In this document: in pieces, positions 5,412 through 26,734 of the stretch | How positions within the stretch are numbered: position 1 is the stretch's first letter | Layout of the letters: every line of letters begins with the position of its first letter | Source: a virus | Length of the DNA stretch: 64,000 nucleotides | Strand: one strand, 5' to 3' | IMG/VR virus record: IMGVR_UViG_3300005529_000001 | Span: 144,882-208,881 of that record | Position numbers and translations under genes: made by a program | The notes under the pieces: model-generated | What the model was told of the DNA's origin: nothing | The model's database searches: none | What the model saw: the letters and a program-made list of their open reading frames with translations, nothing else

Positions 5412-5975
5412 TTACTTTTCAGGCAATCCTAGTTTGGCCCACAGCTGTTTGTTGTAGTTACCAAAAGGCCCCGCGAACAGGACAGAGGGTTTGACCCACT
5501 TGATGACGCCCGTCTCGGGCGTGTTGATCTCACCTTCTACTTCACACGCAAAAGTGTACGTGATGTAACCGTCATCTTCCTGGTGGGTGAAGACGTGGGA
5601 GAGCTTGGTCGCGGTCAGGCCCGTCTCTTCGTAGAGCTCACGGGCCGCAGCTTGTTCGGGAGTCTCACCGGGATCGACTTTACCACCCGGTAAACCAAAC
5701 GCTGATGGGTCGTCCTTGCGGCTGACGGCCAAAGCATGACCATCGTCTGTCAGGATCAGACAACACGCCGCCAGCTTCTTGCCTTGCATCTCCTGGTTCT
5801 CCTCGTTAGCTTCGTCATCAAGAATGTTGCTGCTAGCACCAGGCCTGATGCCCGCATCGCCCGTCGAGTTTCCTGTTGGGAACAACGGGCCTGCAACGCC
5901 GTCCTTGCCATACTCCTTGTTGCCGAAGCCCGTCAGGACTTCAACAATGTATTCACGGAGCAATCGTTTGCTCAT
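5412..5975 (-). CDS. NUDIX hydrolase
   Basis: Nudix box GLPGGKVDPGETPEQAAARELYEETGL. N-terminus MSKRLLREYIVEVLTG resembles the targeting-peptide family. Confidence 0.7.
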   Translation of the reverse strand: MSKRLLREYIVEVLTGFGNKEYGKDGVAGPLFPTGNSTGDAGIRPGASSNILDDEANEENQEMQGKKLAACCLILTDDGHALAVSRKDDPSAFGLPGGKVDPGETPEQAAARELYEETGLTATKLSHVFTHQEDDGYITYTFACEVEGEINTPETGVIKWVKPSVLFAGPFGNYNKQLWAKLGLPEK

Positions 5976-6184
5976 TGGTATCGCTCCGGGTTGAACGGGC
6001 TCATTCCATGCTTACCACCGGGCGTTGGACACGAAGTGGTACTGGTGCAAATGGGCGTTTCTGTTGTGGAATGCCCGTCGTCAGAAACAACCCTGTGTTG
6101 CTGGCACTGTGAGCACAGGTTGCTGATGACAACGAGGCCAAACATGAACGCAAGCAGGAACAGGATGCCCTTGTTTACTTTCAT
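5972..6184 (-). CDS. Small secreted Cys-rich protein
   Basis: Signal-like N-terminus (MKVNKGILFLLAFMFGLVVIS) and 7 Cys. 4-nt overlap with the NUDIX gene start. Confidence 0.3.
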   Translation of the reverse strand: MKVNKGILFLLAFMFGLVVISNLCSQCQQHRVVSDDGHSTTETPICTSTTSCPTPGGKHGMSPFNPERYQ

Positions 6185-6501
6185 CAGTCTTCACCCTCAC
6201 TCAACCTCGTGTCGAGCAAGTTGTACATCGTCTGTCTCGCGGCGTGTTTGTCGCCCCGGAAACGGCTGACAAGCATGGGCCACTTCCGAGCCACATAACG
6301 GTGGACGCGCAGCTTGTGATGGTGAGACCGTTCACCCATTTCTTCTAGCCACTCATCAGCGATGTGATGTGCTTCCTTGTCGGAAGGTTCGTCAGGAGAG
6401 TCTTGAAAGCCAGTCCCGTGTAGGACAGACATCATCCTGGGATCGATGCGTAGCTCCGCCAACGTGGCGTGAATGAACTGGCGCAGCAAGCTTGACATCA
6501 C
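6184..6501 (-). CDS. Hypothetical protein
   Basis: 105-aa ORF tiling the prevailing strand. N-terminus MMSSLLRQFIHATLAEL is targeting-peptide-like. Confidence 0.35.
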   Translation of the reverse strand: MMSSLLRQFIHATLAELRIDPRMMSVLHGTGFQDSPDEPSDKEAHHIADEWLEEMGERSHHHKLRVHRYVARKWPMLVSRFRGDKHAARQTMYNLLDTRLSEGED

Positions 6502-7754
6502 GTCCTCGGTTTCAACAACATCTTAACCAACCAGGTGATGGCATCGATGAAGCTCTGGAAGCCCGACTTGGCTGGCCCATGGACGGGGACAGGAGTGACT
6601 GGCGCGGGCAGAGGGGTGGGCATTGGCCCGGGTTGCACGGGCGGTGGAGGGGGCGGCGTGGGGGCCGGCTGGTCCTGCACGAGGACGGGGATGCCGAGCT
6701 TGTCTGGGTCCCACCACTCTTGCATGGGCCTGCCAAGGGACGTCAGGACGTTCCCGGTACCCTCCGTGATCGCGTTGTTGGCGCGGCCACCTCCGCCATG
6801 GTCAGCGATGCCGTTTGCATCGACATCGCTGAGACACCACTCAACGTGGTCGTTATTGGTTCCCGGCGTGTTGTAACGCATCAGAGCGCCACGCTTTGGC
6901 ATTGTCTTTCCATCAAACTTGACAAGAGCGCCCGTGTTGATGCCGATCTGTCGGACCCATGACACCGCCATGCCCGACACGTACTTCTTGTTCAGGATCG
7001 GGTCACGGACACCCGCCTCAGCCATGATGCCCAAAGCGGACGTTGCACAGTTGGTGGAGACGGTGACGACCGCGTTTGGGTCATCGACGCCACGTGCCAC
7101 AAGCTTGCCCAGCTCATCACGCCGCGTGCTGAGGTTGCAACCGACGTGCGACTTCACCAGCCTGACGATCCGGTCAGCTGGGCTCTCGTTCGCGAGCAAC
7201 GGTTGCTGGTTGACGGGAACGTTGCTGCTCGAGGGATCAGGATGGGTTGGTGGCGCTGGTGGAGGGGGAGGATCGATGGGAGCTGGGTGAACCAACGGCT
7301 GGCCATCGGGGGTCAAGAACAGCTGACGTTCGCGGACTCGCCGGTTGTAGAGGCCCTTGTCTTGAGTCAGCTTGCCGTTGATGACAGCGTGGCACCAGAG
7401 GAGCATCGCGTCAGCTGCGCCCGCAACATCGCCAGCATTTAGCTTGGTTCGCATCGACGAACCGGCCAACGAACCTGTGCCGCAGTTGAAGGTGAACGAC
7501 ACCAGGGCATCAAACATGTTCTGGGTCAAGCCGGAGTACGTGATGTCCTTGTTGACAGCACCTTCCGCAGTGCTCACGTCACCGGCTAGGATCTGCAACG
7601 CTTGGTCATGGGTGATGCCGTTTGGGAACGACTCACCAGGCCGCACAACGTGCCCGATCCCGATCGTTGGGATCCCAGCAATGTCCTTGTAAACGTGATC
7701 GACTTCCCCTTCTTCGCGTGCGATGAAGTTAAGTCCATTCTGGGACGTTTTCAT
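6498..7754 (-). CDS. Multidomain endolysin: N-terminal GH24 (T4-lysozyme-like) muramidase, Pro-rich linkers, Cys/His-containing C-terminal domain
   Basis: GLNFIAREEGEVDHVYKDIAGIPTIGIGH resembles the T4 lysozyme [21 protein letters not shown] catalytic region. PPPPPAPP linkers. Middle domain has conserved Cys (TNCATSA) and His (DHVEWC). C-terminal amphipathic helix. Confidence 0.65.
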   Translation of the reverse strand: MKTSQNGLNFIAREEGEVDHVYKDIAGIPTIGIGHVVRPGESFPNGITHDQALQILAGDVSTAEGAVNKDITYSGLTQNMFDALVSFTFNCGTGSLAGSSMRTKLNAGDVAGAADAMLLWCHAVINGKLTQDKGLYNRRVRERQLFLTPDGQPLVHPAPIDPPPPPAPPTHPDPSSSNVPVNQQPLLANESPADRIVRLVKSHVGCNLSTRRDELGKLVARGVDDPNAVVTVSTNCATSALGIMAEAGVRDPILNKKYVSGMAVSWVRQIGINTGALVKFDGKTMPKRGALMRYNTPGTNNDHVEWCLSDVDANGIADHGGGGRANNAITEGTGNVLTSLGRPMQEWWDPDKLGIPVLVQDQPAPTPPPPPPVQPGPMPTPLPAPVTPVPVHGPAKSGFQSFIDAITWLVKMLLKPRT

Positions 7755-7769
7755 GTCCCTAAATAGGCG
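7755..7769 (-). promoter_or_regulatory. CCTATTTAGGGAC start-proximal motif upstream of the endolysin gene
   Basis: Minus-sense cgCCTATTTAGGGACATG. Confidence 0.3.
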
Positions 7770-7777
7770 TGGGACGG

Positions 7778-8080
7778 TCAGGCAGCTACGGGCTTTTTCT
7801 CGCCCTTCGGTGCTGCAGACTTGAGCTTCGCGACGCTTGCTCGGATGAGAGCGGTGACCTGGTTATGCAGGTCTGACATCTCCCTCTCGACGTCCTGGGG
7901 CGGGAACTGTGCTTTCAGCTTCTCGCCCACCGTGTTGACGAGCTGGGCGACCTGTTGCTTGACGCTGCCCTCAGCACCGCTGCCCGGTTCACCGCCTTTT
8001 GCAGCGGGATCCCTGGGGGCGTCCATGGCTTCTTTGACGAGCTTCTTGATGAGTGCGTTGGTAACAGGGGTGCGGGCCAT
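7778..8080 (-). CDS. Hypothetical protein
   Basis: 100 aa. N-terminus MARTPVTNALIKKLVKEAMD matches the LxxL[IV]xEA targeting-like motif. Confidence 0.4.
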   Translation of the reverse strand: MARTPVTNALIKKLVKEAMDAPRDPAAKGGEPGSGAEGSVKQQVAQLVNTVGEKLKAQFPPQDVEREMSDLHNQVTALIRASVAKLKSAAPKGEKKPVAA

Positions 8081-8088
8081 GCCAGTAA

Positions 8089-8604
8089 CTAGGCTTTCAC
8101 CCGTGCGACTGCTTCATCAAACCAACGGCTGACAGTCTTGGGAAAGGGCCACATGTAACCGTAAGCGCTCGAGACGAACTGCTTCAAGTACCAAGCTCGA
8201 CGCTTGTCATCATTGTAATCGATCCCGTAATCTGCAAAAGCTTGGAGAGACTCTGCATACGCTTGCTGTTCCAGCTTGGCTCGGCAATAGGACAGGCCCA
8301 CCGGGAAAAGGATGAGCAAGTAAAGAAGGGCATACACGGGGTACGTCAACGTGCGTGATTGCCGCATGTGAACGCGCTCGTGACGCAGGATCGAGCACCT
8401 ATCGTCATCGCCGAACGTCTCCCAGCCATCAGGCACGTACACCGTGTGATAGATCGTCGTCACGTAGCTAGTCATGAATTGCTGGCCCAGGACGAGTCCA
8501 ACCAGCTTCATGAACCAGCTATCGTTCTTTTTAGCGATGTTGAAAGAGGGGAACTCTGTTTTTATCTCGGCGCACAGACCTTGATAATCAGGTGTGATTG
8601 TCAT
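8089..8604 (-). CDS. Hypothetical protein
   Basis: 171-aa ORF on the prevailing strand with tight spacing to neighbours. Confidence 0.4.
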   Translation of the reverse strand: MTITPDYQGLCAEIKTEFPSFNIAKKNDSWFMKLVGLVLGQQFMTSYVTTIYHTVYVPDGWETFGDDDRCSILRHERVHMRQSRTLTYPVYALLYLLILFPVGLSYCRAKLEQQAYAESLQAFADYGIDYNDDKRRAWYLKQFVSSAYGYMWPFPKTVSRWFDEAVARVKA

Positions 8605-8608
8605 GCTG

Positions 8609-9103
8609 TTACGTATTCTTCTTGGACGGCAGCTTGAGCCGTCCTTCTGTTGCAGCCCTCTTCACCGCACCGATGACGTCCACCACTTGACCAGCTGCGC
8701 GTCGCGCGTCGATCTCAAATGGGTTGTCATAGTAGGGGTGAGCGTGCAAGCAGAACTTCAGTCCCACGTACGCTAGTCCGTAAAAGATGGGCAAGAAAAC
8801 GCCCAGCACCATGCCCTGACGTACGTGTTCCTGTTCGTGTCGCAGGGCCATGCGACCGTGGTGGGTGTCCAGGTTCCCGTTAAGAACGACGACGTTGCCG
8901 ATGGTGTGCCCCGCCCAGTGCCTCCACGAGTATCTCAACCAGCTGGGCATCAGGTCATTGTTGACAAACCAAACCAGCGCGTCATCTTTGCGACCCTCGT
9001 TGGTGTACCACCCAAGGACGGTGAATGCTGTGACGTAGATGAGGCCACACAACGTGAGCGGGAGGGCCCACAACCAGCCCAACGTCCGCCAAGGTTGCTT
9101 CAC
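8609..9103 (-). CDS. Hypothetical membrane protein
   Basis: Several hydrophobic helices (LGWLWALPLTLCGLIYVTAFTVLGW; VLGVFLPIFYGLAYVGL). Confidence 0.4.
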   Translation of the reverse strand: MKQPWRTLGWLWALPLTLCGLIYVTAFTVLGWYTNEGRKDDALVWFVNNDLMPSWLRYSWRHWAGHTIGNVVVLNGNLDTHHGRMALRHEQEHVRQGMVLGVFLPIFYGLAYVGLKFCLHAHPYYDNPFEIDARRAAGQVVDVIGAVKRAATEGRLKLPSKKNT

Positions 9104-9147
9104 ACCCCACCTCCCATACGGGTAGGTAGGCCAGTTCGTTCAATTGT

Positions 9148-9552
9148 TCACTTCGGAAGAATCACGTGTGGCACTCGTGACTTCCACTCAACGTACTCGC
9201 CAACAACCTTCTGGTGACGCTTGCGAAGCTGCTCAAACTTCTCAGTGAAGTCGACATTCAGGGCAACCCTCTCAACAAAGAGATCGTCCCAAGTAACCTT
9301 GGGCAACGCCACCTTCAGTTCCCAGAGGTTGGCACCTTCAATCGCACCAGGAGCGTCGTTGTAAAACGTGACAGTTGAGACCCCCTGGGGTGAATCGAAT
9401 TCAACGAGCGCCCCATCTATTGACAGCTTTTTGCCCTCTTGGCGAATGACGTCTTTCAAACCCTCGAGGTCGGCTGTCAGCGACCTGATGGTGCGATTGA
9501 GTTCCACTGCTTTGGCGATGGCCTGGCTCACGCGAGCGTTCTTGACCGGCAT
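9148..9552 (-). CDS. Hypothetical protein
   Basis: 134-aa ORF. GGAGG SD 5 nt upstream. Conserved 12-mer TTGTGGTAGACT upstream. Confidence 0.4.
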   Translation of the reverse strand: MPVKNARVSQAIAKAVELNRTIRSLTADLEGLKDVIRQEGKKLSIDGALVEFDSPQGVSTVTFYNDAPGAIEGANLWELKVALPKVTWDDLFVERVALNVDFTEKFEQLRKRHQKVVGEYVEWKSRVPHVILPK

Positions 9553-9594
9553 GGTGCCTCCACACCATCCAGTCTACCACAAATCATACATGAC

Positions 9595-9858
9595 TTACAC
9601 TGTCGGAACCCACTCCATTTTGGAGCGGTCGAAGCGCATGATGTGAGGCGGTTTCTTGCATATCAAGATGACATCTTTTGGAGCAACCATCGCTAGCTGG
9701 TAATCGAGCGGTAGCTCGAACGCAGGCAGGTCCTCCCATGTCTTCACTCCCTCTGGGATGGGAAACAGGTGGATGAGGTTGATGTATGCGTTTGGGTCGA
9801 TGAGAAGCAGCTGGCCTGGCGTGATCTTGACGATGGGAATCGTTGCTTTGGTGCTCAT
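9595..9858 (-). CDS. Hypothetical protein
   Basis: An internal Met start (MSTKATIP) abuts the FEN gene stop. The longer ORF would overlap FEN by 112 nt. Confidence 0.3.
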   Translation of the reverse strand: MSTKATIPIVKITPGQLLLIDPNAYINLIHLFPIPEGVKTWEDLPAFELPLDYQLAMVAPKDVILICKKPPHIMRFDRSKMEWVPTV

Positions 9859-11032: not shown

Positions 11033-11068
11033 CAGACAAGTCTACCACAACCGGGGCGAAAATTACAC

Positions 11069-13412: not shown

Positions 13413-13443
13413 GTCACCACCCTAACACGTCAGGGGGTGTTTT

Positions 13444-13860
13444 TCATACATTCATCAAAACACAACCCGCAACGATCATGATCCCGCCGAGAGCACGGAC
13501 CACGGTCATCGGTTCACCCAACAACAGCCACGCTAGCACGAAAGCGATGCCTGGGTAAACGCTGGTCAGTGACGCAACGACATTGACTGGCTTGTGTTCA
13601 AGCGCGAACATGAACGCATAGACCGCAATCAGACCAAGCACCGATGTCACTGTTGCCCAAAAGATGCCAGGACGCGTCCATGCAAACGTGTCACCACGCC
13701 ACTTCATCCACAAGAAAACGAGCGGAGCGACTGAGGAGTAAACATACAGCGTCACCAGCTGGACCAGCATCGGTGACATGTTGCGAACGGCGAGTTTTGA
13801 TGTGATGACCCACGTGCCCCAACCCAAAAGAGCGCACGCGATGTAAAACCAATCACGCAT
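13444..13860 (-). CDS. Small 4-TM membrane protein (DMT/EamA-like half-transporter fold)
   Basis: 138 aa with four predicted TM helices. N-terminus WFYIACALLGWGTWVITSKLAV. Confidence 0.4.
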   Translation of the reverse strand: MRDWFYIACALLGWGTWVITSKLAVRNMSPMLVQLVTLYVYSSVAPLVFLWMKWRGDTFAWTRPGIFWATVTSVLGLIAVYAFMFALEHKPVNVVASLTSVYPGIAFVLAWLLLGEPMTVVRALGGIMIVAGCVLMNV

Positions 13861-14186
13861 CAGATGTCCTTCAGTTTTTCACCGCCCAAGATGTGGAAAT
13901 GCAAGTGTTTCATCGTCTGGCCCGAATCTGAACCTACGTTGGTCACGATCCGGTAACCCTCCGGGAGGTTGATGTTGGCAAAGTGAGTGGCCAGCGACAG
14001 CATCCTTCCCGCGTGGACGAAATCACGTTGGCAGGTGGCATGGATGTCGGGGTCACAGTGACGGCCAATCGCCAGGTAATGCCTGGTAGCTGCTGGGTCT
14101 TTGGCACGGATGATGATCCCGACCTCGTTTGTGTCAAGGATCTCGGTTGAGATCTCTTTGTTCACGATCTTACAGAAGACGCACAT
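13860..14186 (-). CDS. HIT-family (histidine triad) nucleotide hydrolase/transferase
   Basis: CVFCKIV N-terminal motif and histidine triad HLHFHILGG. Confidence 0.7.
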   Translation of the reverse strand: MCVFCKIVNKEISTEILDTNEVGIIIRAKDPAATRHYLAIGRHCDPDIHATCQRDFVHAGRMLSLATHFANINLPEGYRIVTNVGSDSGQTMKHLHFHILGGEKLKDI

Positions 14187-15206: not shown

Positions 15207-15237
15207 GCCTAACCCTACAACGGGTTGCGCGCTTTTT

Positions 15238-15510: not shown

Positions 15511-15525
15511 TCTCGTAAGTATCGA

Positions 15526-16869: not shown

Positions 16870-16901
16870 GCTGCCACCCTACTTTGCGGAGCGCTAAAAG
16901 A

Positions 16902-17222: not shown

Positions 17223-17234
17223 ATCTTACTTCGA

Positions 17235-18323
17235 TCACAGCGACTTGATCTTGCTGATCGTCTGCTGGTAATCTTGCGCGATCGGAGAGTTTCCAAACTT
17301 CTTCGCTTGTTGTTGCAAGCTCTTGACGTAAAAAGCCTTCATCGACTTCTTGACGCCAACTAGCAGCTGCTGTTCTGCAGCTCGACGAGCGTTTGGCTCG
17401 ATCTGGGCCAACTTCTCTGCACCCTTGATTCGCTTGCCCAGCTTTTGTTGCAAGTCTTGGACCGAGTTCGCTTTCAACACTGCTTGCGCTTGCTTGTAGA
17501 CTTGCGTTAGGGGCGTCCTGATGAGTTGCTGCGCCTGCTGTCGCATCTTACGACCCAACTGGCTGTCGTTGACAGCAGCGATCAGTTTCGGGTTGTTGAG
17601 CATCTGGTCGCCGCTGGCTTGCTGTTTATCCGCATCTTCACGGATGACGCCCTCCATGTGCCCACCAAAGCCCATGTCGCCGTAGCCGCCGAGGTCATAG
17701 CCCCCACCACCTCCCATTGCCTTGTTGAGGTTCTTGTCATCCTTGCGATGGGGACCCTCTTCACCGCCCAGCTCTTTCTTGAGACGATCGAGGTAACCGT
17801 CAATGGTTCCTCCAGTGAGCGTGCTCAGCAGGCCGATCGCTGCACCTGGCGCTTTCTTTGCAAGCGAACCGATGATGAACTTGGCGGGGTCATACATGAA
17901 TGACAAGAACAAGAAATCTTCGTCCTTGAAGGCGTCCCAGTTCGCTTGGTAAACCTCAGCGTACTCCTGACGGATCTTGTCGATGTTCTCTTTTTCTTTC
18001 TGGAAGATCTCGTTGTACGAGTCTGTCAGGACCGGGATCAGAGTCGTAGCGATGGTCTCAAAAGCGACCCTAACGAGGGTCTGCGCTTTCTGGGACAGCT
18101 CTTTGGTCTTGCCCGCCGCAGTCTGGACTACGTCAACGAAGGGCCGAACGAAGATGTTGTAGAGCTGGTCGTTGGAGCCGAACGAGACTCCCCAGGGAGA
18201 GTTCGTGGCATCCCACATGGCCAGGTCATAGTAGGTGGAATCTCCACCAAACCCACCATCGTCCTCTTGTAGGACCTCTTGGACAAACTCCTTGAGAAGG
18301 ACCTTTTCAGCTAGACGCCCCAT
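17235..18323 (-). CDS. Hypothetical Gly-rich protein (possible virion component)
   Basis: 362 aa. N-terminus MGRLAEKVLLKEFVQEVLQE is T4 capsid-targeting-sequence-like. GGGGGYDLGGYGDMGFGG stretch. CCTATTTAGGGTGG immediately upstream. Confidence 0.4.
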   Translation of the reverse strand: MGRLAEKVLLKEFVQEVLQEDDGGFGGDSTYYDLAMWDATNSPWGVSFGSNDQLYNIFVRPFVDVVQTAAGKTKELSQKAQTLVRVAFETIATTLIPVLTDSYNEIFQKEKENIDKIRQEYAEVYQANWDAFKDEDFLFLSFMYDPAKFIIGSLAKKAPGAAIGLLSTLTGGTIDGYLDRLKKELGGEEGPHRKDDKNLNKAMGGGGGYDLGGYGDMGFGGHMEGVIREDADKQQASGDQMLNNPKLIAAVNDSQLGRKMRQQAQQLIRTPLTQVYKQAQAVLKANSVQDLQQKLGKRIKGAEKLAQIEPNARRAAEQQLLVGVKKSMKAFYVKSLQQQAKKFGNSPIAQDYQQTISKIKSL

Positions 18324-18338
18324 CCACCCTAAATAGGC
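18324..18338 (-). promoter_or_regulatory. CCTATTTAGGGTGG start-proximal motif upstream of 17235-18323
   Basis: Minus-sense gagCCTATTTAGGGTGGATG. Confidence 0.3.
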
Positions 18339-18800
18339 TCACAGAGGCCTAGCGACGTTCCCGTTCTCCAAGTGCTTGAACAGGGCTTCTACGCCCGTCG
18401 CGACCAGTGGACGCTGGTAGACGTGGATCGTTGGGAGCTCCCCCACGTCGAACCACCGAGCGTCGGCAACCTCGCTGTCGGGATCATCGTGCCGCGGGTC
18501 ATCACTGCCCACCACGGTGCATAACCAGGAGACAACTGTCTTGTCTTCGTTTTGCGTCAAGCAGCCCACGTCGGGCAGCTTCATCCCAAGGACGACTTGG
18601 ACACCAGCTTCCTCACGAACTTCACGAATTGCGCACTCTTCCTGAGTCTCTCCCGGGTGCATGTGCCCCTTCGGGATTCCCCATGAGTCCTTGTGAGCAA
18701 ACTGCTTGATCAGGAGCACCTCGATCCGTCCGTCGCGCTGTCGCCAGGGCAGCCCGCCGCAGGACATTGACTTCCTACGTTCCTTGTTCTCTGTCTTCAT
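18339..18800 (-). CDS. NUDIX hydrolase
   Basis: Nudix box GIPKGHMHPGETQEECAIREVREEAGV. Sits directly downstream of the HxGH nucleotidyltransferase gene. Confidence 0.7.
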   Translation of the reverse strand: MKTENKERRKSMSCGGLPWRQRDGRIEVLLIKQFAHKDSWGIPKGHMHPGETQEECAIREVREEAGVQVVLGMKLPDVGCLTQNEDKTVVSWLCTVVGSDDPRHDDPDSEVADARWFDVGELPTIHVYQRPLVATGVEALFKHLENGNVARPL

Positions 18801-18821
18801 GCTACCACTGTAACCCAGGCT

Positions 18822-20492
18822 TCAGCTCGTTGACACACCGCCCAAGAGAAGCGCCCAAACGGCTTCACCATCAATGCTGTTGGGTAGGTTCTTGACGAAT
18901 TGAGCCTTGTCACCGTTAGCGAGCCAATGGCGCATCTGGGTACCAGACACATCTACTGTGGAAGAACGCTCAATTGCTCTTGTCTTGATCTGTCCGTTAG
19001 CAACCAAAGTACCAGCATACTTGGGCAGGGTATCAAACCTGTTGGCGTCGCTGGGGTCTGAATAGATGCTGAAGATGTCACGGCTGGAGTCGTCGTTAGC
19101 GTGACCCAGGAGCTCGAAGACCTTGCCCACTGGCGAGCCCCCGTATACGACAGCAACGTTGTCAGGTAGCGAGGGTACGATCTGCTCTTGCCAGATTCGC
19201 TCCATTGCTTTGCCGCTGATGTTGTCACGATCTGATAGCGACACAAAGACAGTGACCCTATCGTTTTCCTGTGCAGCCAGTCGGATGATAGCATCATGAC
19301 CCGCATGGTAAGGTTTGTATGCACCAGGAACGAGACCGATCTTCATGGGTGTTACCATCGATGCAGGCTGGAAGTATTTGAAGTGCGCATCGCCTTTAGA
19401 CATGTTGAGAAACTTCACTGTCTTGTCATAGTCGGCTTTTGGGATAACGAGGTATTGGGTGGGTCTATCCACGGGACGCACCAGGAAGATGTAATCAGTG
19501 AAGAAACTCTCGCTGCCCTTCATCGTGTGGCTGACATACCTGCAGAAATGGTAGATGCCTTCCGGATCTCGGATCATCTGGTCTTCGCGGTACAGGCTCG
19601 GCGTGCCGTTCCAATCAAGGTGATTAAGGATCTCAATCACGGAATAAAACTCTTGCCAGTCACCGAGGTGCATGTTGCCATACTCAAGGCTGGCATTGAC
19701 ATTGTTGAGCAACCTGACAACCCACTCAAGTTTTCGAACCTCTTGGTCAGACAGTCGCTTGCCTGCTTTCTTGATCAGATCAGGCATAATGTCGATGATC
19801 CGTTCAATTCGGCGTCGGACACGGTTGATGTTTCGCCGAGAGTGAGCTCCCCCGCGGAAGGTGTTGTCGTCAGTTGCTTTGGTTTCCGCAGTCTCTCCGC
19901 CAGGTAATGCATGGTCGCACCGGCCACCCTTGGGAGGAATTGCACCCATCAACGCATTGATCTCGTTCTCCCCAGGACCCTTGCCTCGTGCGTACTTGAC
20001 ATCAGCAGTCACGGGTGGCAGGTGCAACCAGGTATGAAACGCTGGAAACTGGAACTTGGGACCGTCTGGGAAGACGATGGGAGGCAGCGCGGGTCGGACA
20101 CGACAAGTGAACTCTTCTGGGATCTCTCCCAACTCAATGGCAAGGTCTCGTGCTAATTGCCTGTCTTCGGCGATGTACTTGGGCTCAACGGGATAACGCC
20201 GGAGGTTCCGTAGCTTGGCTGCGGTATTGCACTTAGCTTTGTCACGTTCCCACCGTTCTTTTTCAGCTGCTAGAAACTGGTCGAACGTCTCCAACTTGGA
20301 GCTGACATCAACCAGTCGATCGAACGTGGCGACACGTTGTAGCTCGATGGTGGTCGGGTCTTCCAGTTCACGGAGAGGTTGGACCCGATCGCGGATGCTC
20401 TCAAGCAGCATGCTCAACTCTACACAACATGTGAAGCTAAGTTCAGCCGCCAGCGAGTGCGTCGATATACTCGAGAGCCTTCTCGGGCTCAT
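18822..20492 (-). CDS. Two-domain protein: unknown N-terminal region plus C-terminal HxGH-motif nucleotidyltransferase (NMN/NaMN adenylyltransferase- or cytidylyltransferase-like)
   Basis: C-terminal GLVPGAYKPYHAGHDAII (HxGH) then VTVFVSLSDRD, typical of the NadD/NMNAT/CTase Rossmann family. The true start may be the internal Met at about 20411 (MLLESIRDRVQPL), which avoids overlap with 20443-21258. Confidence 0.5.
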   Translation of the reverse strand: MSPRRLSSISTHSLAAELSFTCCVELSMLLESIRDRVQPLRELEDPTTIELQRVATFDRLVDVSSKLETFDQFLAAEKERWERDKAKCNTAAKLRNLRRYPVEPKYIAEDRQLARDLAIELGEIPEEFTCRVRPALPPIVFPDGPKFQFPAFHTWLHLPPVTADVKYARGKGPGENEINALMGAIPPKGGRCDHALPGGETAETKATDDNTFRGGAHSRRNINRVRRRIERIIDIMPDLIKKAGKRLSDQEVRKLEWVVRLLNNVNASLEYGNMHLGDWQEFYSVIEILNHLDWNGTPSLYREDQMIRDPEGIYHFCRYVSHTMKGSESFFTDYIFLVRPVDRPTQYLVIPKADYDKTVKFLNMSKGDAHFKYFQPASMVTPMKIGLVPGAYKPYHAGHDAIIRLAAQENDRVTVFVSLSDRDNISGKAMERIWQEQIVPSLPDNVAVVYGGSPVGKVFELLGHANDDSSRDIFSIYSDPSDANRFDTLPKYAGTLVANGQIKTRAIERSSTVDVSGTQMRHWLANGDKAQFVKNLPNSIDGEAVWALLLGGVSTS

Positions 20493-22471: not shown

Positions 22472-22475
22472 GGCA

Positions 22476-22769
22476 CTACCTCGAATCGGTGCTGGTTGGT
22501 GCGGGGTTGTCGACCTTGCCCGAGCGCTTCGCTGATGACAGCTCGCTCTTCAAGCGTCCGATCAGACGTGAGTAGTTAGCCCGCGCTTCGCTACCACGCT
22601 TCTGTTTGCTACGAAAGTGCATCAGTTCCTCGATGCGGCGTTCCAGGTCGCGGATGTGCTTGGTGGATCCGTGCTTCACCCGAGAGCCGTCACTGACGTC
22701 AGCTTCCCTGACTTTTCTTTCGACGACGAGTTCGACGAACTCTTTCAGGGTTTTCTTCGGGCTTGGCAT
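22476..22769 (-). CDS. Hypothetical protein
   Basis: 97 aa. N-terminus KTLKEFVELVVE resembles the T4 CTS (KTYQEFIAEA). Overlaps 22699-23022. Confidence 0.3.
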   Translation of the reverse strand: MPSPKKTLKEFVELVVERKVREADVSDGSRVKHGSTKHIRDLERRIEELMHFRSKQKRGSEARANYSRLIGRLKSELSSAKRSGKVDNPAPTSTDSR

Positions 22770-23022
22770 CCTGCTTCATCTCCCGCTCGGCCTTGTCAAC
22801 AGCGCCGTTGAGGCTACCCCATACATACATCCGAACGTGGTCGTCATCCAGGGTCTGGTCACCCGTGAGCCCATAGTGCTGGCGCAGCTTGGCGATGAAC
22901 TGGGGTGACATTTCAACCTCCAGCACGCCGCCTTGGGGCAAGGTGATGCTGCGTTTTTCAGCGACCTTGTCAGGCGGGAGTTGGGGGTGGTTGCTCATGT
23001 GGGAACAGTAACCCATTCCCAA
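22699..23022 (-). CDS. Hypothetical protein
   Basis: 107-aa ORF. The basic C-terminus overlaps 22476-22769 by 71 nt, so one of the two may be mis-called. Confidence 0.3.
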   Translation of the reverse strand: MGMGYCSHMSNHPQLPPDKVAEKRSITLPQGGVLEVEMSPQFIAKLRQHYGLTGDQTLDDDHVRMYVWGSLNGAVDKAEREMKQDAKPEENPERVRRTRRRKKSQGS

Positions 23023-23031
23023 ACAAGTGTT

Positions 23032-23811
23032 TCACTTACGTCTTTTCGGGACGATGGGTGAGGGCGGTGTGGTGTCTTCCTCGGCTCCCGCACCAGCCGG
23101 TGCAGGACCGCCAGCGGGTGCAGCGGGTTTCGGTGATGCCTTGCTGGTCTCGCCGGGCCCCTTGATGACATTGGGCTTCTTCTGGATCGTCTTGGGCTCG
23201 TTGCCCTTTTCCATGTTGACGTCAGCGGGTTGTGCGTCAGGCGAGACAGCGGCTTGGCCGGGCACCTCTCCTGTCACGATCTGGCTGATCCCCTGGAGGA
23301 ATGACATCAGGGCCACGCGCTCGGGCTTCTTCAGCTTGGCAACGTAAGTGTCGATAGCTTGTGAGACTGCGCTGTCCTTGAAGGACTTGCCGCTGCGGAT
23401 CGAGTTCAGCTTCTCGACGATGTCCTTGACACTGATGTCGCCACGCTTCAGCTTATCAGCGGTGTCATCAGCGGGCTCGACCTGGTCATCCTTGTCAGGC
23501 ATGTTGTCGGGCATCGGGCTCTCTGCATCCTCGGCGCCGCCACCCGCCATCGCATCATCCCCACCAGCGTCACCGCCCCCGCCGTCGAACAGGCTGTCAA
23601 CGTCACCGCCCAAGTCCGGTTCTGAAGCAGGCTCATCAGGCTTGCCCGCCACAGAGCTAGCTGTCTTCAGCTGCTTCTCCTTCTCAGTCAACGCTTTGTG
23701 CGCCAACGAGCTCTTGTAACCCGTCTCAAAGACGTGGCCCAGGTATGCTCGCAACGACTTTCCGCTGTCGATCTTCACCGTACGTTCGTCTGACATCACC
23801 GGCCTCCCCAT
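23032..23811 (-). CDS. Acidic low-complexity (D/G/A-rich) protein
   Basis: 259 aa. Long GGDVDSLFDGGGGDAGGDDAMAGGGAEDAE region and a Pro/Ala-rich C-terminus. Confidence 0.4.
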   Translation of the reverse strand: MGRPVMSDERTVKIDSGKSLRAYLGHVFETGYKSSLAHKALTEKEKQLKTASSVAGKPDEPASEPDLGGDVDSLFDGGGGDAGGDDAMAGGGAEDAESPMPDNMPDKDDQVEPADDTADKLKRGDISVKDIVEKLNSIRSGKSFKDSAVSQAIDTYVAKLKKPERVALMSFLQGISQIVTGEVPGQAAVSPDAQPADVNMEKGNEPKTIQKKPNVIKGPGETSKASPKPAAPAGGPAPAGAGAEEDTTPPSPIVPKRRK

Positions 23812-24176
23812 CGTGTCTTGTTCATCGGACGGTCCTGGATGCGAGCCGCGCGCCGGCGTTGCGGGTTGTCCTCGGTCTTGCGATCGATCTTCTGGCGCTG
23901 GTGTTCATCAACAACGATGCGGTCCATGAACTTGTCGAACTCCGTCACCTTGTTTTCGAATTGCCTCTCACCTGGCGGCAAGAAAGACTTTGAAAGATCG
24001 TAGTCTTCGTCCCTATCGACATGACCGCCTTCCTCTTCTGGGCAGCCCATGCCTGGGATGCACGGGCCATCGTGGCCGTCACGGCCCCCGCAACCATAGC
24101 AGATCGCTTCGTCAGGAAGCTCCATGTCGAGGTCTTCGGGACCCTCTAATCCTGTGCGTGGTGCCATACCGGGCAT
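23796..24176 (-). CDS. Hypothetical Cys-rich protein
   Basis: 126 aa. CYGCGGRDGHDGPCIPGMGC metal-binding-like cluster. Confidence 0.35.
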   Translation of the reverse strand: MPGMAPRTGLEGPEDLDMELPDEAICYGCGGRDGHDGPCIPGMGCPEEEGGHVDRDEDYDLSKSFLPPGERQFENKVTEFDKFMDRIVVDEHQRQKIDRKTEDNPQRRRAARIQDRPMNKTRWGGR

Positions 24177-24208
24177 GATCTTCTCCTGTGATAACTAGGA
24201 GGTTCGAG

Positions 24209-24631
24209 TCACCGTGCGGGGCGCTTGAGACCAAGGCCCAGGACGCACAGACCGTTCCTGACGTCCAGATGGTCCATCCGTGCCGCCTTGATCAGGAAGG
24301 GACCCGGAGCCTTGATGACACGATCGCCATAGTGCAGCTCGTAACCCTGGAAGACAAGCTGTGCCGCTGACACGACATTGAATGCGTCTTCGAGCGTTAC
24401 CTTGAACTCTAGCTCGGGTTCGACATCGAACAGGACTGACTGCAGGTGACCGACAACCGCGGTGCCCTTGCCCGAACCAAATTGGATGTTCGCCACGACG
24501 GTGACAACGGAACCCTCGAGCTGGTCAGCTGCTTGGACGATCGCCTCGTCTTCTAGCTCCGCAGGGACCTGGCCCCTGAGGACCTCGCTCATCAGGACTT
24601 TAGACGTCTCCGGTTGGATCCTCGTCTCCAT
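24209..24631 (-). CDS. Hypothetical protein
   Basis: 140-aa ORF. TAGGAGG SD upstream. Confidence 0.35.
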   Translation of the reverse strand: METRIQPETSKVLMSEVLRGQVPAELEDEAIVQAADQLEGSVVTVVANIQFGSGKGTAVVGHLQSVLFDVEPELEFKVTLEDAFNVVSAAQLVFQGYELHYGDRVIKAPGPFLIKAARMDHLDVRNGLCVLGLGLKRPAR

Positions 24632-25016
24632 CCTCGAATCCTACAACAACGTTGGGCCTGGAGACGAGGTCTTTGAAGACACAGTCAGCAAACCGAGCGT
24701 ATTCCTTGTCTAGCTCGGTCACGCGTTCAGCGGTCTTGGTCTGCACCCTGAGGCTCACTTCGCCCTCATCGATCCTGATCTGCGCGTTGTGCTGGACATC
24801 ACGCTCGTGGGCTAACAATGCGATGACAAACTGGTCACGTTGGTCGCCCTCGCGGAACGTGTAGGTCTTGTAGAGGGCGCCGTCAGCTTCGTGCCACCTG
24901 TCCATCGGGATGATGGGCGCTTGGGGCGTACGCGCTCTGATGGGCAAGCCACCGAGCTGCATCGGGCGCTGCGCTCGTTGGATGAACTGTTCGTTGAGTT
25001 GCGTTAGCTTGGTCAT
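24600..25016 (-). CDS. Hypothetical protein
   Basis: 138-aa ORF. N-terminus MTKLTQLNEQFIQRA. Confidence 0.35.
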   Translation of the reverse strand: MTKLTQLNEQFIQRAQRPMQLGGLPIRARTPQAPIIPMDRWHEADGALYKTYTFREGDQRDQFVIALLAHERDVQHNAQIRIDEGEVSLRVQTKTAERVTELDKEYARFADCVFKDLVSRPNVVVGFEDGDEDPTGDV

Positions 25017-25564
25017 CAGTTCTTTTGTGAGCCGGGCTCGTCTTCTGGGTATGTGTTATCAATTGTACCCTCTTGCCAGTGTTCTCGGACAGTCATTGAC
25101 GTGTCTGTAACGATCCACGCGCCAGGCGAGCTTGGAATGAAAACGGCGAGGATGACTTTGTCCCCTGGCTTGAAACGCGTCTTTTTGATGGGCTGGAATC
25201 CGGTGGGATCCATGTCAGCCGCGAGATCAGGGTAGCTGATCATAACGCTTGACCCGGCATCGTAGCTGTCACCAAACGCATGTTCGACTGTCGTTATTGC
25301 GGTACCCTTGATGAGGGGATCGCCGGCGGGCAAGACGATTGGGCACCCGTCAGCTTCACCAGGATCATTTTCAATCTCCTGCTTGTCAGTGATGTGCGTG
25401 CCAAGCAACGTTGCCATCTGCTGGGCGGCAGCATGGCACGCTTGTTCGTTGCCTTTGACAAACCAAGCACAAAGATCACCTTCCCAGTCAAACATGCACG
25501 TCATGAACTGGCCTTTTGCGGCTTCCGCAATCAGAGCACGAAGTTGTCTTAGAGTAGTTTTCAT
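25016..25564 (-). CDS. MKTT-family protein (candidate virion-packaged/ejected protein with CTS-like propeptide)
   Basis: N-terminus MKTTLRQLRALIAEAAKG. Paralogous N-terminus and near-identical upstream region to 25572-25961. Confidence 0.5.
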   Translation of the reverse strand: MKTTLRQLRALIAEAAKGQFMTCMFDWEGDLCAWFVKGNEQACHAAAQQMATLLGTHITDKQEIENDPGEADGCPIVLPAGDPLIKGTAITTVEHAFGDSYDAGSSVMISYPDLAADMDPTGFQPIKKTRFKPGDKVILAVFIPSSPGAWIVTDTSMTVREHWQEGTIDNTYPEDEPGSQKN

Positions 25565-25571
25565 CCCAACA

Positions 25572-25961
25572 TCACATCTCCCACTCGTCGCCCGTCCATT
25601 TCATGTCGCTGCCACCGCCAGCGAGATTCGCGACGGCTTCATCGTCATAGAAGTGAAGAACGTATCCGGGGAAATCGGACAATGCATTTTCATAGTATGG
25701 GCTATCAAAATCACCGAACGCTTGCAACGACCAACGGCACTGATCAGGTGAAAGCAACCCAGGCTCTTGTGGGTCCCAATCTCCCGTCTCTTTGGCGGCT
25801 TCTACGTTATCTTTGTAGAGTTCCAGTGCAGAAGCCCATGCTTCAGGAAAGAACTGCATGACCTGGTCAATTGACAATGGCACGGTATGCTGACCGCTAC
25901 TAATGTCTGGCTTGAGGGCTTCTTGAATCAGCTTCTTGAGCTTACCGATTGTTGTTTTCAT
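25572..25961 (-). CDS. MKTT-family protein (candidate virion-packaged/ejected protein with CTS-like propeptide)
   Basis: N-terminus MKTTIGKLKKLIQEALKPD. GGAG SD. Tandem with 25016-25564. Confidence 0.5.
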   Translation of the reverse strand: MKTTIGKLKKLIQEALKPDISSGQHTVPLSIDQVMQFFPEAWASALELYKDNVEAAKETGDWDPQEPGLLSPDQCRWSLQAFGDFDSPYYENALSDFPGYVLHFYDDEAVANLAGGGSDMKWTGDEWEM

Positions 25962-26734
25962 CCCAGCACCACAACTCCACCAACGACCGCTGCTTCCGTG
26001 AAGCTGCTGCCATGTGTCCAGATCCGACGGTCACGGTCGATGACACATGACCCACCCTTGTATGACATGTCACGTTCAGTGCCCACGCGGTTGCTGACGA
26101 CCACGTTTGCGCGTGTCTCCTCAACCAGCTCGACCCAAGCGTTGTCCGGGTAACCGTACGCAGCGCCCCAGTTCGTCAGCAGGGCGATGGTGTCAACGCT
26201 GCCCAGCTTGTAAAAACGCTGTGTTGTTGCATGGTGGATGTACGACTCACGGTAACGGTTCGATGCGTCTCTGCAGATCAGGACACCCAACCTTCCCGCG
26301 GGGGTGATGATGACCGGAGCGGGTGCCTCGCTGGGCTGTGCCCACAGGTTGTCGCTGCCATAGAGGTTGTGCTTCTGGGCGTTGCCCGCCAACCCGTTGG
26401 GTCCCACGACGGCGGCTGAGTTGTACAGCTTTCCCTCACAGAGCTCGGTGTAACCGAAGACGACGTAGCAACCAAACTTCCGGGTGATAGCTTCGAAAGC
26501 ACAGGTTTGGTAACCATCACGTGTCTGTGCGACCTCGACGGCTTCACGGGGCGAGTGCAGGTTGTAACCCCCGATACAAGTCTCGGGCAACACGACCAGC
26601 ATCGCGCCCTTGGCTGCAGCTTCGAACGTCAGCTCGAGCGCAGTCGCCAGGTTCTCTTGGACCCGCCCGAGCTTGGGCTCGTACTGGACCGCAGCGACAA
26701 CCTGTGTCTGTGGGATCGCGGTGACAAACTCCAT
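25958..26734 (-). CDS. Carbon-nitrogen hydrolase (nitrilase superfamily)
   Basis: Catalytic E-K-C motifs: LVVLPETCIGG, KHNLYG, VLICRDAS. Start set at the internal ATG (MEFVTAIP) forming TGATG with the upstream stop. Confidence 0.6.
   Translation of the reverse strand: MEFVTAIPQTQVVAAVQYEPKLGRVQENLATALELTFEAAAKGAMLVVLPETCIGGYNLHSPREAVEVAQTRDGYQTCAFEAITRKFGCYVVFGYTELCEGKLYNSAAVVGPNGLAGNAQKHNLYGSDNLWAQPSEAPAPVIITPAGRLGVLICRDASNRYRESYIHHATTQRFYKLGSVDTIALLTNWGAAYGYPDNAWVELVEETRANVVVSNRVGTERDMSYKGGSCVIDRDRRIWTHGSSFTEAAVVGGVVVLG

What the first reader, a model, noticed from the sequence alone, without database searches (positions are those of the whole stretch)
5412..26734. Possible NAD(+) salvage/reconstitution genes: HxGH adenylyltransferase-like domain fused to an unknown 350-aa N-terminal domain, adjacent NUDIX, a second NUDIX carrying a targeting-like peptide, HIT protein and nitrilase-family hydrolase
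18822-20492 ends in a classic (H/T)xGH nucleotidyltransferase domain (PYHAGH ... SLSDRD) of the NMNAT/NadD type. It is followed 22 nt later by a NUDIX hydrolase (18339-18800). That is a split version of the NadM-Nudix / phage NatV arrangement.

A second NUDIX (5412-5975) carries the CTS-like N-terminus and so may be injected. A HIT-family hydrolase (13860-14186) and a CN-hydrolase (25958-26734) could process ADP-ribose or dinucleotide derivatives.

Phage NAD-reconstitution pathways counter NAD-depleting defences (Thoeris, DSR, SIR2, SEFIR). The uncharacterised N-terminal domain fused to the adenylyltransferase is the novel element. It could be a phosphoribosyltransferase, or could bind ADP-ribose or nicotinamide.
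Basis: inference. Interest (0 to 1): 0.6.

Follow-up and report, generated by a model that had tools for sequence, protein, structure and literature searches.

The report
Tagged NMNAT-like enzyme in jumbo phage
An uncultivated giant phage encodes a nucleotide-joining enzyme that resembles the last enzyme of NAD synthesis and sits next to a NUDIX hydrolase, but the window shows no complete NAD-rebuilding pathway; the more unusual feature is a short "address" peptide shared by these and other enzymes of the phage lineage.

Summary

The HxGH domain belongs to a large metagenomic, apparently phage-borne family with 1,263 cluster representatives. Its nearest characterised relatives are NadR/NadM-type NMN adenylyltransferases, including phage Bas30_86 of NARP3 (profile E 3e-8). 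It fails every curated NMNAT threshold. By fold it is as close to PPAT as to NMNAT.

The "novel 350-aa N-domain" is the product of the upstream, fast-evolving ORFan. It became fused when the HxGH gene flipped orientation. In most relatives the HxGH gene is separate and on the opposite strand. The N-domain shows no sign of a PRTase.

The NUDIX enzymes are of Ap4A/DIPP/MutT type, not ADP-ribose type. The window holds no Nampt, Adps/Namat or PnuC. HIT and CN-hydrolase are scattered and nothing links them to NAD. The NAD-reconstitution reading is therefore only partly supported.

A terminal peptide, LLRxY[IV]RxVL, resembles the T4 capsid-targeting sequence. It marks:
- the N-terminus of NUDIX2 (93 of 104 homologues);
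- the 362-aa neighbour "C2";
- two further window proteins;
- the C-terminus of many standalone HxGH proteins.

Some HxGH proteins are fused directly to C2. This suggests a docking or targeting tag for nucleotide-handling enzymes.

The parts
18822..19366 (-). HxGH (PYHAGH ... VSGTQMR) nucleotidyltransferase domain, the C-terminal ~180 aa of the fused gene
19367..20411 (-). N-terminal ~350-aa domain. It is the product of the upstream lineage-specific ORFan, fused in frame.
   Evidence: Stand-alone 360-363-aa gene in P0003/P0005/P0006 and L012. No Pfam, NCBIfam, PHROG or PDB hit. Low-confidence, mostly helical model.
18339..18800 (-). NUDIX hydrolase 1 (153 aa), Ap4A/DIPP/MutT1-like
   Evidence: Pfam NUDIX 4e-20. 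Best PDB matches are DIPP1, Ap4A hydrolases and Ndx1. NCBIfam best match is MutT1. Adjacent to HxGH in 15 of 45 loci.
17235..18323 (-). 'C2' protein (362 aa) with the N-terminal tag KVLLKEFVQEVL, a Gly-rich linker and a helical body. It is the most constant neighbour of HxGH.
   Evidence: Found in 21 loci. Alignment A7. Fused C-terminally to HxGH in P0155, P0084, P0008, P0012, P0029/P0167, P0118 and P0109.
5412..5975 (-). NUDIX hydrolase 2 (187 aa), MutT-like, with the N-terminal tag KRLLREYIVEVL and a conserved GFGNK..GKDG extension
   Evidence: Pfam NUDIX 8e-23. MutT models 4e-12 over the full MutT length. 93 of 104 full-length homologues carry the tag.
13860..14186 (-). HIT-family protein (108 aa), Hint branch
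   Evidence: Pfam HIT/DcpS_C. NCBIfam purine nucleoside phosphoramidase 1.8e-13, below cutoff.
25958..26734 (-). Nitrilase-superfamily (CN-hydrolase) protein, 258 aa, with the family's Glu/Lys/Cys triad motifs present (read by eye)
   Evidence: Pfam 2e-27. NCBIfam archaeal nitrilase 5e-26 and the NAD synthase glutaminase domain 6e-15, both far below cutoff. No NAD synthetase domain is present.
22476..22769 (-). 97-aa protein with the N-terminal tag KKTLKEFVELVV. By size and position it probably corresponds to neighbour cluster C4 (not tested).
   Evidence: Regex scan of window genes. Other C4 members carry the tag.
42319..45432 (+). 1037-aa ORFan with the N-terminal tag LGVLRDYVSNLL
   Evidence: No Pfam hit at E <= 0.001, no NCBIfam or PDB hit, and no informative phage homologue.
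21251..22471 (-). 'C1' protein (406 aa), the most widely conserved neighbour upstream of the HxGH slot; function unknown
   Evidence: Cluster C1 occurs in 29 loci. No family hit.
41721..42272 (-). 183-aa P-loop protein, a weak lead for a small-molecule kinase
   Evidence: Pfam AAA_28 at 26.1 bits against a cutoff of 27, over most of the profile. From memory, this family contains the NadR ribosylnicotinamide-kinase domain. No NadR hit in PDB and no NCBIfam hit.

Best explanation
Gene 18822-20411(-) encodes a fusion of two parts. The first is a lineage-specific, mostly helical ORFan. The second is a member of a large, uncharacterised family of HxGH adenylyltransferase-like enzymes known only from metagenomic and viral contigs.

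SHOWN:
- The fold and both catalytic motifs ((H/T)xGH and ISxTxxR) are intact.
- The nearest characterised relatives are NadR/NadM-type NMN adenylyltransferases.
- Residues that align with the NMN/NAD pocket of phage Bas30_86 are conserved across the family. S44 aligns with S37, P80 with P84, the aromatic at position 85 with W90, and Y103-S-D...D108 with F110-S-S...D115.
- The fusion arose by inversion of the HxGH ORF, which is stand-alone and antisense to its neighbours in most relatives.
- The HxGH gene belongs to a recurrent block: C1, a variable gene, HxGH, NUDIX (optional), C2.
- HxGH is fused directly to C2 in several other phages.
- A peptide, LLRxY[IV]RxVL, sits at the N-terminus of C2, NUDIX2 and other proteins. 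It also sits at the extreme C-terminus of many stand-alone HxGH proteins. The window copy lost it when it became fused.

INFERRED:
- The enzyme transfers AMP from ATP to a mononucleotide-like acceptor. NMN, giving NAD+, is the most likely acceptor. It acts as a single salvage step that depends on host-made NMN, not as part of a full reconstitution pathway.
- The shared peptide is a docking or targeting tag. It brings nucleotide-handling enzymes (NTase, NUDIX, HAD nucleotidase-like) to a common site. In the window protein the N-terminal fusion partner may replace the tag.
For: - Motifs and ORF.
- Family size: 1,263 representatives at E <= 1e-3, 225 at E <= 1e-30.
- Model of the C-domain: pLDDT 95.
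- Profile vs PDB: 9x6f (Bas30_86, per PMC13464706) 2.9e-8 over positions 2-149; MJ0541 NMNAT 7e-7; E. coli NadR 4e-5; best PPAT 2e-4, over the HxGH motif only.
- PHROG best hit is the NMNAT family 3462.
- Column conservation: H25 86/86, R147 86/86, P80 86/86, aromatic 85 in 82/86, S44 82/86, D108 82/86.
- Inversion and fusion.
- Neighbourhood.
- HxGH-C2 fusions.
- Tag statistics: 30 of 87 family members with a tail carry it, against 0.2 expected. 93 of 104 NUDIX2 homologues carry it. In the window it is found at 4 N-termini and 0 interior sites in 20,409 residues. In neighbour genes there are 2 interior sites in 110,010 residues. A tagged HAD-type protein was also found.
Against: - No curated NMNAT model is passed: TIGR01526 21.9 bits vs a cutoff of 341; TIGR01527 15.6 vs 181.
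- The first motif reads G-A-Y-K-P instead of G-[RK]-F-x-P.
- The loop equivalent to the NMN loop is shorter (alignment).
- Foldseek TM scores to NadD, NadM and PPAT are all 0.5-0.63. The fold does not tell NMNAT from PPAT.
- The window has no gene for making NMN, and no ADP-ribose-type NUDIX.
- NUDIX is absent next to HxGH in 30 of 45 loci.
- In most relatives HxGH is divergently transcribed from NUDIX and C2, so they are not an operon.
- All neighbourhood conservation comes from one broad phage lineage and may be plain synteny.
- No experimental datum exists for any family member.
Confidence: 0.4

Rival explanations
1. The HxGH fusion, both NUDIX enzymes, HIT and the CN-hydrolase together form a phage NAD+ reconstitution or anti-defence pathway, a split NadM-Nudix/NatV plus accessory hydrolases. 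The N-domain acts as a PRTase or binds ADP-ribose or nicotinamide.
For: - The HxGH domain is NMNAT-like.
- A NUDIX gene is adjacent, and the pairing recurs.
- Phage NAD+ pathways NARP1-3 are established counter-defences (10.1101/2024.02.11.579819; PMC13464706).
- The CN-hydrolase shows weak similarity to the NAD synthase glutaminase domain.
- A sub-threshold AAA_28 P-loop protein lies 21 kb away.
Against: - The NUDIX types are Ap4A/DIPP/MutT, not ADPRase. Neither matches the NatV-like PHROG 3462.
- The window has no Nampt, Namat, Adps or PnuC.
- The N-domain is helical or disordered, evolves fast, and is a separate gene in most relatives.
- HIT is Hint-type.
- The genes are interspersed with about 30 unrelated ORFs.
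- NUDIX is dispensable beside HxGH in 30 of 45 loci.
Confidence: 0.12
2. The HxGH family uses a different acceptor. Candidates are 4'-phosphopantetheine, FMN, a sugar- or polyol-phosphate, or a protein or nucleic-acid end. It would then be unrelated to NAD. The NMNAT resemblance would only reflect the shared adenylyltransferase scaffold.
For: - PPAT scores almost equal NMNAT scores by fold.
- The first motif is atypical.
- All curated NMNAT cutoffs are missed.
- Public sources label relatives only 'cytidyltransferase-like' or 'citrate lyase synthetase'.
- The window also encodes a CCA-adding-type enzyme, an RNA ligase and sugar-nucleotide enzymes.
Against: - Full-domain sequence matches occur only to NMNATs. 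PPAT, PanC and CitC matches cover only the ~40 residues around HxGH.
- An aromatic residue and an Asp are conserved at positions that align with NMN-pocket residues of Bas30_86.
- Cytidylyltransferases align over only ~100 residues.
- The sugar genes are more than 25 kb away.
Confidence: 0.3
3. The HxGH domain is a catalytically inert structural or virion module, a degenerate enzyme fold reused as a scaffold. This would explain its many fusions to long unknown extensions.
For: - The domain is fused to many unrelated extensions without Pfam hits, in proteins up to 1,147 aa.
- Viral structural neighbours are large multidomain proteins.
- 'Cytidyltransferases' are repeatedly reported in cyanophage virion proteomes (PMC10665884).
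Against: - The catalytic residues are invariant or nearly so across 86 diverse members: H25, R147 and P80 in 86/86; G24, S142, G143 and T144 in at least 80/86.
- Most members are stand-alone ~180-aa proteins.
Confidence: 0.05

Closest known systems
NadR-type NMN adenylyltransferase domain, e.g. phage Bas30_86 of NARP3 (PDB 9X6F/9X6H; PMC13464706), and E. coli / H. influenzae NadR
   Same: It is the best sequence-profile match over the whole domain (E 2.9e-8). It shares (H/T)xGH, the V-x-S-x-x-(D/N)-R strand-2 motif, the Pro and aromatic of the NMN loop, the [FY]-S-x-x-x-D motif and IS-x-T-x-x-R. Both are phage-encoded.
   Different: - About 20% identity.
- No ribosylnicotinamide-kinase domain is fused, and no PnuC partner is present.
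- The G-K-F-x-P motif is replaced by G-A-Y-K-P.
- The NMN loop is shorter.
- It fails the curated cutoff of TIGR01526.
NadM-Nudix / phage KVP40 NatV (bifunctional NMNAT + ADP-ribose pyrophosphatase), the Nmnat half of NARP2
   Different: - The NUDIX here is of Ap4A/DIPP/MutT1 type and does not match the NatV-like PHROG.
- The pairing is optional (15 of 45 loci). In most relatives the two genes are divergently transcribed.
- The Nampt (NadV) partner that defines NARP2 was not found in the window.
'Cytidyltransferase-like' multidomain proteins of uncultured phages and T4-like cyanophages (e.g. S-PM2, P-TIM68, S-RIM2; BFVD A0A218ML49)
   Same: They are the closest structural neighbours among viral proteins (TM 0.72-0.79 for the top three). 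They show the same habit of fusing the HxGH domain to long unknown extensions. They are described as NMNAT homologues that turn up in virion proteomes (PMC10665884).
   Different: Only 16-24% identity. No function has been shown for these proteins either. The terminal LLRxYIRxVL tag and the C2 partner were not examined in them.
T4 capsid-targeting sequence (CTS, MKTYQEFIAE) of internal proteins IPI-III
   Same: Both are short N-terminal peptides shared by otherwise unrelated proteins. The core x-E-[FY]-I-x-E matches: REYIRE here, QEFIAE in T4. Both lie 4-10 residues from the initiator Met and are followed by a cargo domain. T4 internal proteins are diverse anti-defence proteins that share only the CTS (PMC3012670, PMC8442874).
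   Different: - The phage is unrelated to T4 as far as can be seen.
- The tag also occurs at the extreme C-terminus of the HxGH family, which is not known for the T4 CTS.
- No prohead protease, scaffold or capsid gene was identified in the window.
- Encapsidation and cleavage are untested.

Membership tests
HxGH (HIGH-type) nucleotidyltransferase superfamily | (H/T)xGH motif after strand 1 | tested here: met
   PYHAGH. In the family, H22 is H in 74 and T in 10 of 86; H25 is H in 86/86.
HxGH (HIGH-type) nucleotidyltransferase superfamily | C-terminal ISxTxxR motif | tested here: met
   VSGTQMR. S142 82/86, T144 80/86, R147 86/86.
HxGH (HIGH-type) nucleotidyltransferase superfamily | Rossmann-like fold with five parallel strands | tested here: met
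NMN adenylyltransferase (NadM/NadR type) | Passes a curated family model | tested here: not met
   TIGR01526 21.9 bits vs 341; TIGR01527 15.6 vs 181; PRK01153 17.6 vs 127.
NMN adenylyltransferase (NadM/NadR type) | G-[RK]-F-x-P-x-H-x-G-H first motif | tested here: not met
   The window has G-A-Y-K-P-Y-H-A-G-H. In the family, position 17 is S/A, position 18 is A/F/G, and K19 is K in 84/86. The basic residue is shifted by two positions.
NMN adenylyltransferase (NadM/NadR type) | Pocket residues for the NMN moiety (Bas30_86 S37, P84, W90, F110, S112, D115) | tested here: inconclusive
   The aligned positions S44, P80, Y/W/F85, Y103, D105 and D108 are conserved. This rests on a sequence alignment at ~20% identity, not on a superposition.
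NMN adenylyltransferase (NadM/NadR type) | NMN + ATP -> NAD+ + PPi activity | not testable with these tools
   Needs enzymology.
NadM-Nudix / NatV | NMNAT joined to an ADP-ribose-pyrophosphatase-type Nudix | tested here: not met
   The adjacent NUDIX best matches DIPP, Ap4A hydrolase and MutT1. It does not match PHROG 3462, and 2qjo/2qjt are absent from its PDB hits.
NARP1 (Adps + Namat) | PRPP-synthetase-like Adps and Nampt-like Namat genes | tested here: not met
   No such Pfam family appears among ~95 window ORFs. The remaining ~305 kb of the genome could not be examined.
NARP2 (Nampt + Nmnat) | A Nampt/NadV gene in the same genome | tested here: inconclusive
   Absent from the 64-kb window (same calls). 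The rest of the genome was not available.
NARP3 (PnuC + NadR) | PnuC transporter next to an NMNAT-RNK fusion | tested here: not met
   No PnuC, and no RNK domain fused. The only candidate is a sub-threshold AAA_28 P-loop protein 21 kb away, with no NadR match in PDB.
Glycerol-3-P / choline-P / heptose cytidylyltransferases | Closest fold and sequence neighbour is a cytidylyltransferase | tested here: not met
T4-type capsid-targeting sequence | Short N-terminal peptide shared by unrelated proteins | tested here: met
   The tag is found at 4 window N-termini and 0 interior sites, in 93 of 104 NUDIX2 homologues, and in families C2, C14 and C4.
T4-type capsid-targeting sequence | Directs encapsidation and is cleaved by the prohead protease | not testable with these tools
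   Needs virion proteomics and N-terminal mapping.

The most novel reading that the evidence does not exclude
LLRxY[IV]RxVL is a cargo-loading (capsid-targeting) or metabolon-docking peptide of a large, uncultivated jumbo-phage lineage, and it works from either terminus. Through it the phage would load or co-localise a set of nucleotide-handling enzymes: the NMNAT-like transferase, MutT/Ap4A-type NUDIX hydrolases, a HAD nucleotidase-like protein and several ORFans. C2 would be the hub. If the target is the capsid, these enzymes would be injected with the DNA and could reset host nucleotide and NAD pools before any phage gene is expressed.
Probability: 0.3. Interest if true: 0.75.

Novelty: new variant of a known kind. 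Interest (0 to 1): 0.45.

Why it matters
Phage NAD+ rebuilding (NARP1-3) is a recently recognised general counter-defence. A fourth, widespread NMNAT-like family, with more than 1,200 sequence clusters and none characterised, would extend it if the activity is confirmed.

Independently of the substrate, the shared terminal peptide links enzymes of several unrelated families. Together with the HxGH-C2 fusions, it gives a directly testable handle on how an uncultivated giant-phage lineage organises or delivers its auxiliary enzymes. This is analogous to the T4 capsid-targeting sequence, which has also been useful as an engineering tool.

The finding also corrects the idea that the 350-aa N-domain is a new catalytic module. 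It is a neighbouring gene captured by an inversion.

Tried and rejected
- **DNA similarity to cultured phages:** none.
- **tblastn against 50,697 phage records:** the N-domain and C2 gave nothing. The C-domain gave only a 25%-identical Bacteroides phage 'cytidyltransferase'. The 1037-aa protein gave only two short, uninformative matches.
- **N-domain as PRTase/Nampt:** no Pfam, NCBIfam, PHROG, PADLOC or PDB-profile hit. The model is helical or disordered. Rejected.
- **Programmed (invertase-type) inversion of the HxGH segment:** no inverted repeats at the breakpoints in the window, L002, L005 or L056. Considered unlikely.
- **Archaeal-NMNAT alignment that put family W60 on the nicotinamide-stacking Trp:** rejected. 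It needs a 29-residue gap and breaks the one-to-one strand order of the model. The colinear alignment to Bas30_86 was used instead.
- **AFDB50 fold search:** unavailable.
- **The search for related loci with the 86-sequence alignment:** failed. The 8-sequence alignment worked.
- **Exact-peptide scan for LLREYI[RS]EVL in IMG/VR:** only four loci, because the tag is degenerate.
- **P-loop protein 41721-42272 as NR kinase:** unsupported beyond a sub-threshold AAA_28 hit.

Full report
**Context**

The window is almost entirely minus-strand, tightly packed ORFs. The target protein is 100% identical to a gene on a 369,506-bp metagenomic contig.
- There is no DNA similarity to any of 50,697 phage records.
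- The DnaE-type polymerase is only 26-30% identical to those of cultured phages.
- The window also encodes thymidine kinase, a ThyA-like protein, dCMP deaminase, PolIII-alpha, a CCA-adding-type enzyme, an RNA ligase, sugar-nucleotide enzymes, two DNA methylases and a lysozyme.

This is an uncultivated jumbo phage.

**Observation**

All five domains are real.
- The HxGH ORF is continuous from 20492 to 18822. All homologues begin at the residue equivalent to M28 and the public call is 529 aa, so the gene is 18822-20411.
- NUDIX1 starts 21 nt downstream, at 18800.
- Only these two genes are adjacent. NUDIX2, HIT and the CN-hydrolase lie 13 kb, 4 kb and 6 kb away, among about 30 other genes.

**The HxGH domain**

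With the word-indexed search the full protein has only 11 relatives. An exhaustive profile search with the C-domain finds 1,263 cluster representatives, 225 of them at E <= 1e-30.
- Most are stand-alone proteins of ~175-210 aa.
- Many are fused to N- or C-terminal extensions that have no Pfam hit.
- The sources give them no functional names beyond 'cytidyltransferase-like'.

With 86 sequences, AlphaFold gives a pLDDT-95 model with five strands.

| Comparison | Result |
|---|---|
| Profile vs PDB: phage Bas30_86 (9x6f), NadR-like NMNAT of NARP3 | E 2.9e-8, whole domain |
| Profile vs PDB: archaeal NMNAT MJ0541 | E 7e-7 |
| Profile vs PDB: E. coli NadR | E 4e-5 |
| Profile vs PDB: PPAT | from E 2e-4, HxGH region only |
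| Foldseek vs PDB: NadD, NadM and PPAT alike | TM 0.5-0.63 |
| Foldseek vs viral models: multidomain 'cytidyltransferase-like' proteins | TM up to 0.79 |

The best viral structural neighbours come from uncultured phages and T4-like cyanophages. One paper calls these proteins NMNAT homologues and reports that they turn up in virion proteomes (PMC10665884).

Family-wide conservation covers both catalytic motifs. It also covers positions that align with NMN/NAD-pocket residues reported for Bas30_86:
- S44 with S37
- P80 with P84
- aromatic 85 with W90
- Y103 with F110 and D105 with S112
- D108 with D115

Against membership:
- The first motif is G-A-Y-K-P rather than G-[RK]-F-x-P.
- The NMN loop is shorter.
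- Every curated NMNAT model is missed by a wide margin.

Conclusion: this is an adenylyltransferase-class enzyme of a separate phage family. NMN is the best guess for the acceptor, but it is unproven.

**The N-domain**

- It has no hit in Pfam, NCBIfam, PHROGs, PADLOC or PDB, by single sequence or profile.
- The model is long helices plus low-confidence segments.
- In P0003, P0005, P0006 and L012 it is a separate 340-363-aa gene.

DNA comparison shows that the window is colinear with L056 and L005 up to 19366. In those relatives the HxGH ORF lies flipped, immediately downstream of that point (confirmed by reverse DNA alignment for L056 and by translation for L005). In L056 and L005 the two genes are tail-to-tail with overlapping 3' ends. 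Across 45 non-redundant loci the usual state is a stand-alone HxGH gene antisense to all its neighbours. The window, L002 and L057 carry the co-directional, fused state.

Two further points:
- The Shine-Dalgarno sequence upstream of the HxGH start in L056 (GGAGGAAG) is absent in the window. The domain is therefore probably made only as the fusion.
- No inverted repeats flank the segment.

The 'novel domain' is therefore a captured neighbour, not a new catalytic module.

**The other genes**

- NUDIX1 is closest to DIPP, Ap4A hydrolases, Ndx1 and MutT1.
- NUDIX2 is closest to MutT and Ap4A hydrolases, over the full MutT length.
- Neither matches the NatV-like PHROG.
- HIT is Hint-like.
- The CN-hydrolase is a generic nitrilase-family protein with no NAD-synthetase domain.
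- No Nampt, PRPP-synthase-like protein or PnuC occurs among ~95 window ORFs.
- A P-loop protein at 41721-42272 reaches 26.1 bits on AAA_28 (cutoff 27) but has no NadR match.

By the definitions in the literature, NARP1 is Adps + Namat, NARP2 is Nampt + Nmnat and NARP3 is PnuC + NadR. None is present in the window.

**Neighbourhood and the shared peptide**

In 48 IMG/VR loci plus the look-up loci, the recurrent order is C5, C9, C4, C1, a variable ~290-390-aa gene, HxGH, NUDIX, (C10), C2, C6, C8, C3.
- NUDIX abuts HxGH in 15 of 45 loci.
- C2, the window's 362-aa gene 17235-18323, is a neighbour in 21 loci.
- A C2 profile matches the C-terminal part of HxGH proteins P0155, P0084, P0008, P0012, P0029/P0167, P0118 and P0109. 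This is a Rosetta-stone link.

C2 begins M-x(3-8)-LLREY[IV]RE[VI]LKEDDGG. The same peptide appears as follows.

| Where | Count |
|---|---|
| After the domain in HxGH family members that have a tail | 30 of 87 (shuffled expectation 0.2), 25 of them at the extreme C-terminus |
| N-terminus of full-length NUDIX2 homologues | 93 of 104 |
| Window genes 5412-5975, 17235-18323, 22476-22769 and 42319-45432 | 4 N-termini, 0 interior sites in 20,409 residues |
| Neighbour families C14 and C4 and several singletons | N-terminal; only 2 interior sites in 110,010 residues |
| A HAD-type (DMDGVL) nucleotidase-like protein, found in three IMG/VR loci, one on a 254-kb contig that also carries an HxGH fusion | N-terminal |

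In relatives the HxGH tail reads LLRSYVREVLK*. Its antisense supplies the last codons of the N-domain gene. The window's fused copy has lost this tail.

The core REYIRE resembles the T4 capsid-targeting sequence MKTYQEFIAE. In T4 this peptide alone suffices to encapsidate any fused protein and is cleaved off. It is the only element shared by the diverse anti-defence internal proteins (PMC8442874, PMC3012670).

Whether the tag here targets the capsid, a multi-enzyme complex around C2, or something else cannot be decided in silico.

**Verdict**

- The NAD-reconstitution interpretation is partly supported. The NMNAT-like call and the NUDIX pairing hold. The pathway, the PRTase idea, and the roles of HIT and the CN-hydrolase do not.
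- The most informative result is structural-genomic. A large uncharacterised phage NMNAT-like family is tied to C2 and to other nucleotide-handling enzymes by fusion, neighbourhood and a shared terminal tag.

Noticed in passing
window 35591-36148(-) and 36153-36722(-): Two adjacent ~185-aa proteins have weak proteasome-subunit / HslV similarity (Pfam Proteasome 3.6e-4; NCBIfam HslV 1.6e-3). This may be a phage-encoded HslV/proteasome-like protease pair.
   Followed up: no
window 24600-25016(-), also L002:5448-5825: A pterin-4a-carbinolamine dehydratase-like gene (Pfam Pterin_4a in the public call; NCBIfam 4e-6) is conserved a few genes downstream of the CN-hydrolase in two related phages. Its role is unknown.
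   Followed up: no
window 13444-13860(-), also L005:10837-11253: A 138-aa EamA/DMT-type half-transporter lies directly after the HIT gene and is conserved in relatives. NARP3 pairs a transporter with its NMNAT, but this one is not PnuC and is 5 kb from the HxGH gene.
   Followed up: partly
L005:3096-4769, L056:492-2156: In close relatives the N-domain gene and the HxGH gene are convergent and overlap by 36-39 nt. The last ~12 codons of the N-domain ORF are the antisense of the HxGH tag LLRSYVREVLK. L056 has an extra 263-aa minus-strand gene between HxGH and NUDIX.
   Followed up: yes
window ~13223: The public 369.5-kb ENA contig ends at the position matching window 13223, yet the window continues for another 13 kb. 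The assembly is either circularly permuted or terminally redundant (a complete genome), or the window comes from a near-identical second assembly. The closest database copy of NUDIX2 is 99% identical, not 100%.
   Followed up: no
L058:4582-4610 (also L060, L061): A ~222-aa HAD-type (DMDGVL motif) nucleotidase-like protein carries the same N-terminal tag (SLLREYISEVL). L058 lies on a 254-kb viral contig that also encodes a 636-aa HxGH fusion (L039).
   Followed up: partly
family members P0060, P0082, P0089, P0098, P0100, P0111: A second class of HxGH proteins has no LLRxYIR tag. These end in a conserved ADGT-x-L-x-P-V-P-V-x-[KR]4-5 basic tail, which may be an alternative targeting or nucleic-acid-binding tail.
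   Followed up: no
window 52-945(+), 50809-55193 region and others: The window also holds a trypsin-like peptidase, an Fe/Mn superoxide dismutase, an LD-carboxypeptidase, an Fe-S cluster biosynthesis-like protein and LRV-repeat proteins. This is an unusually broad set of auxiliary genes.
   Followed up: no
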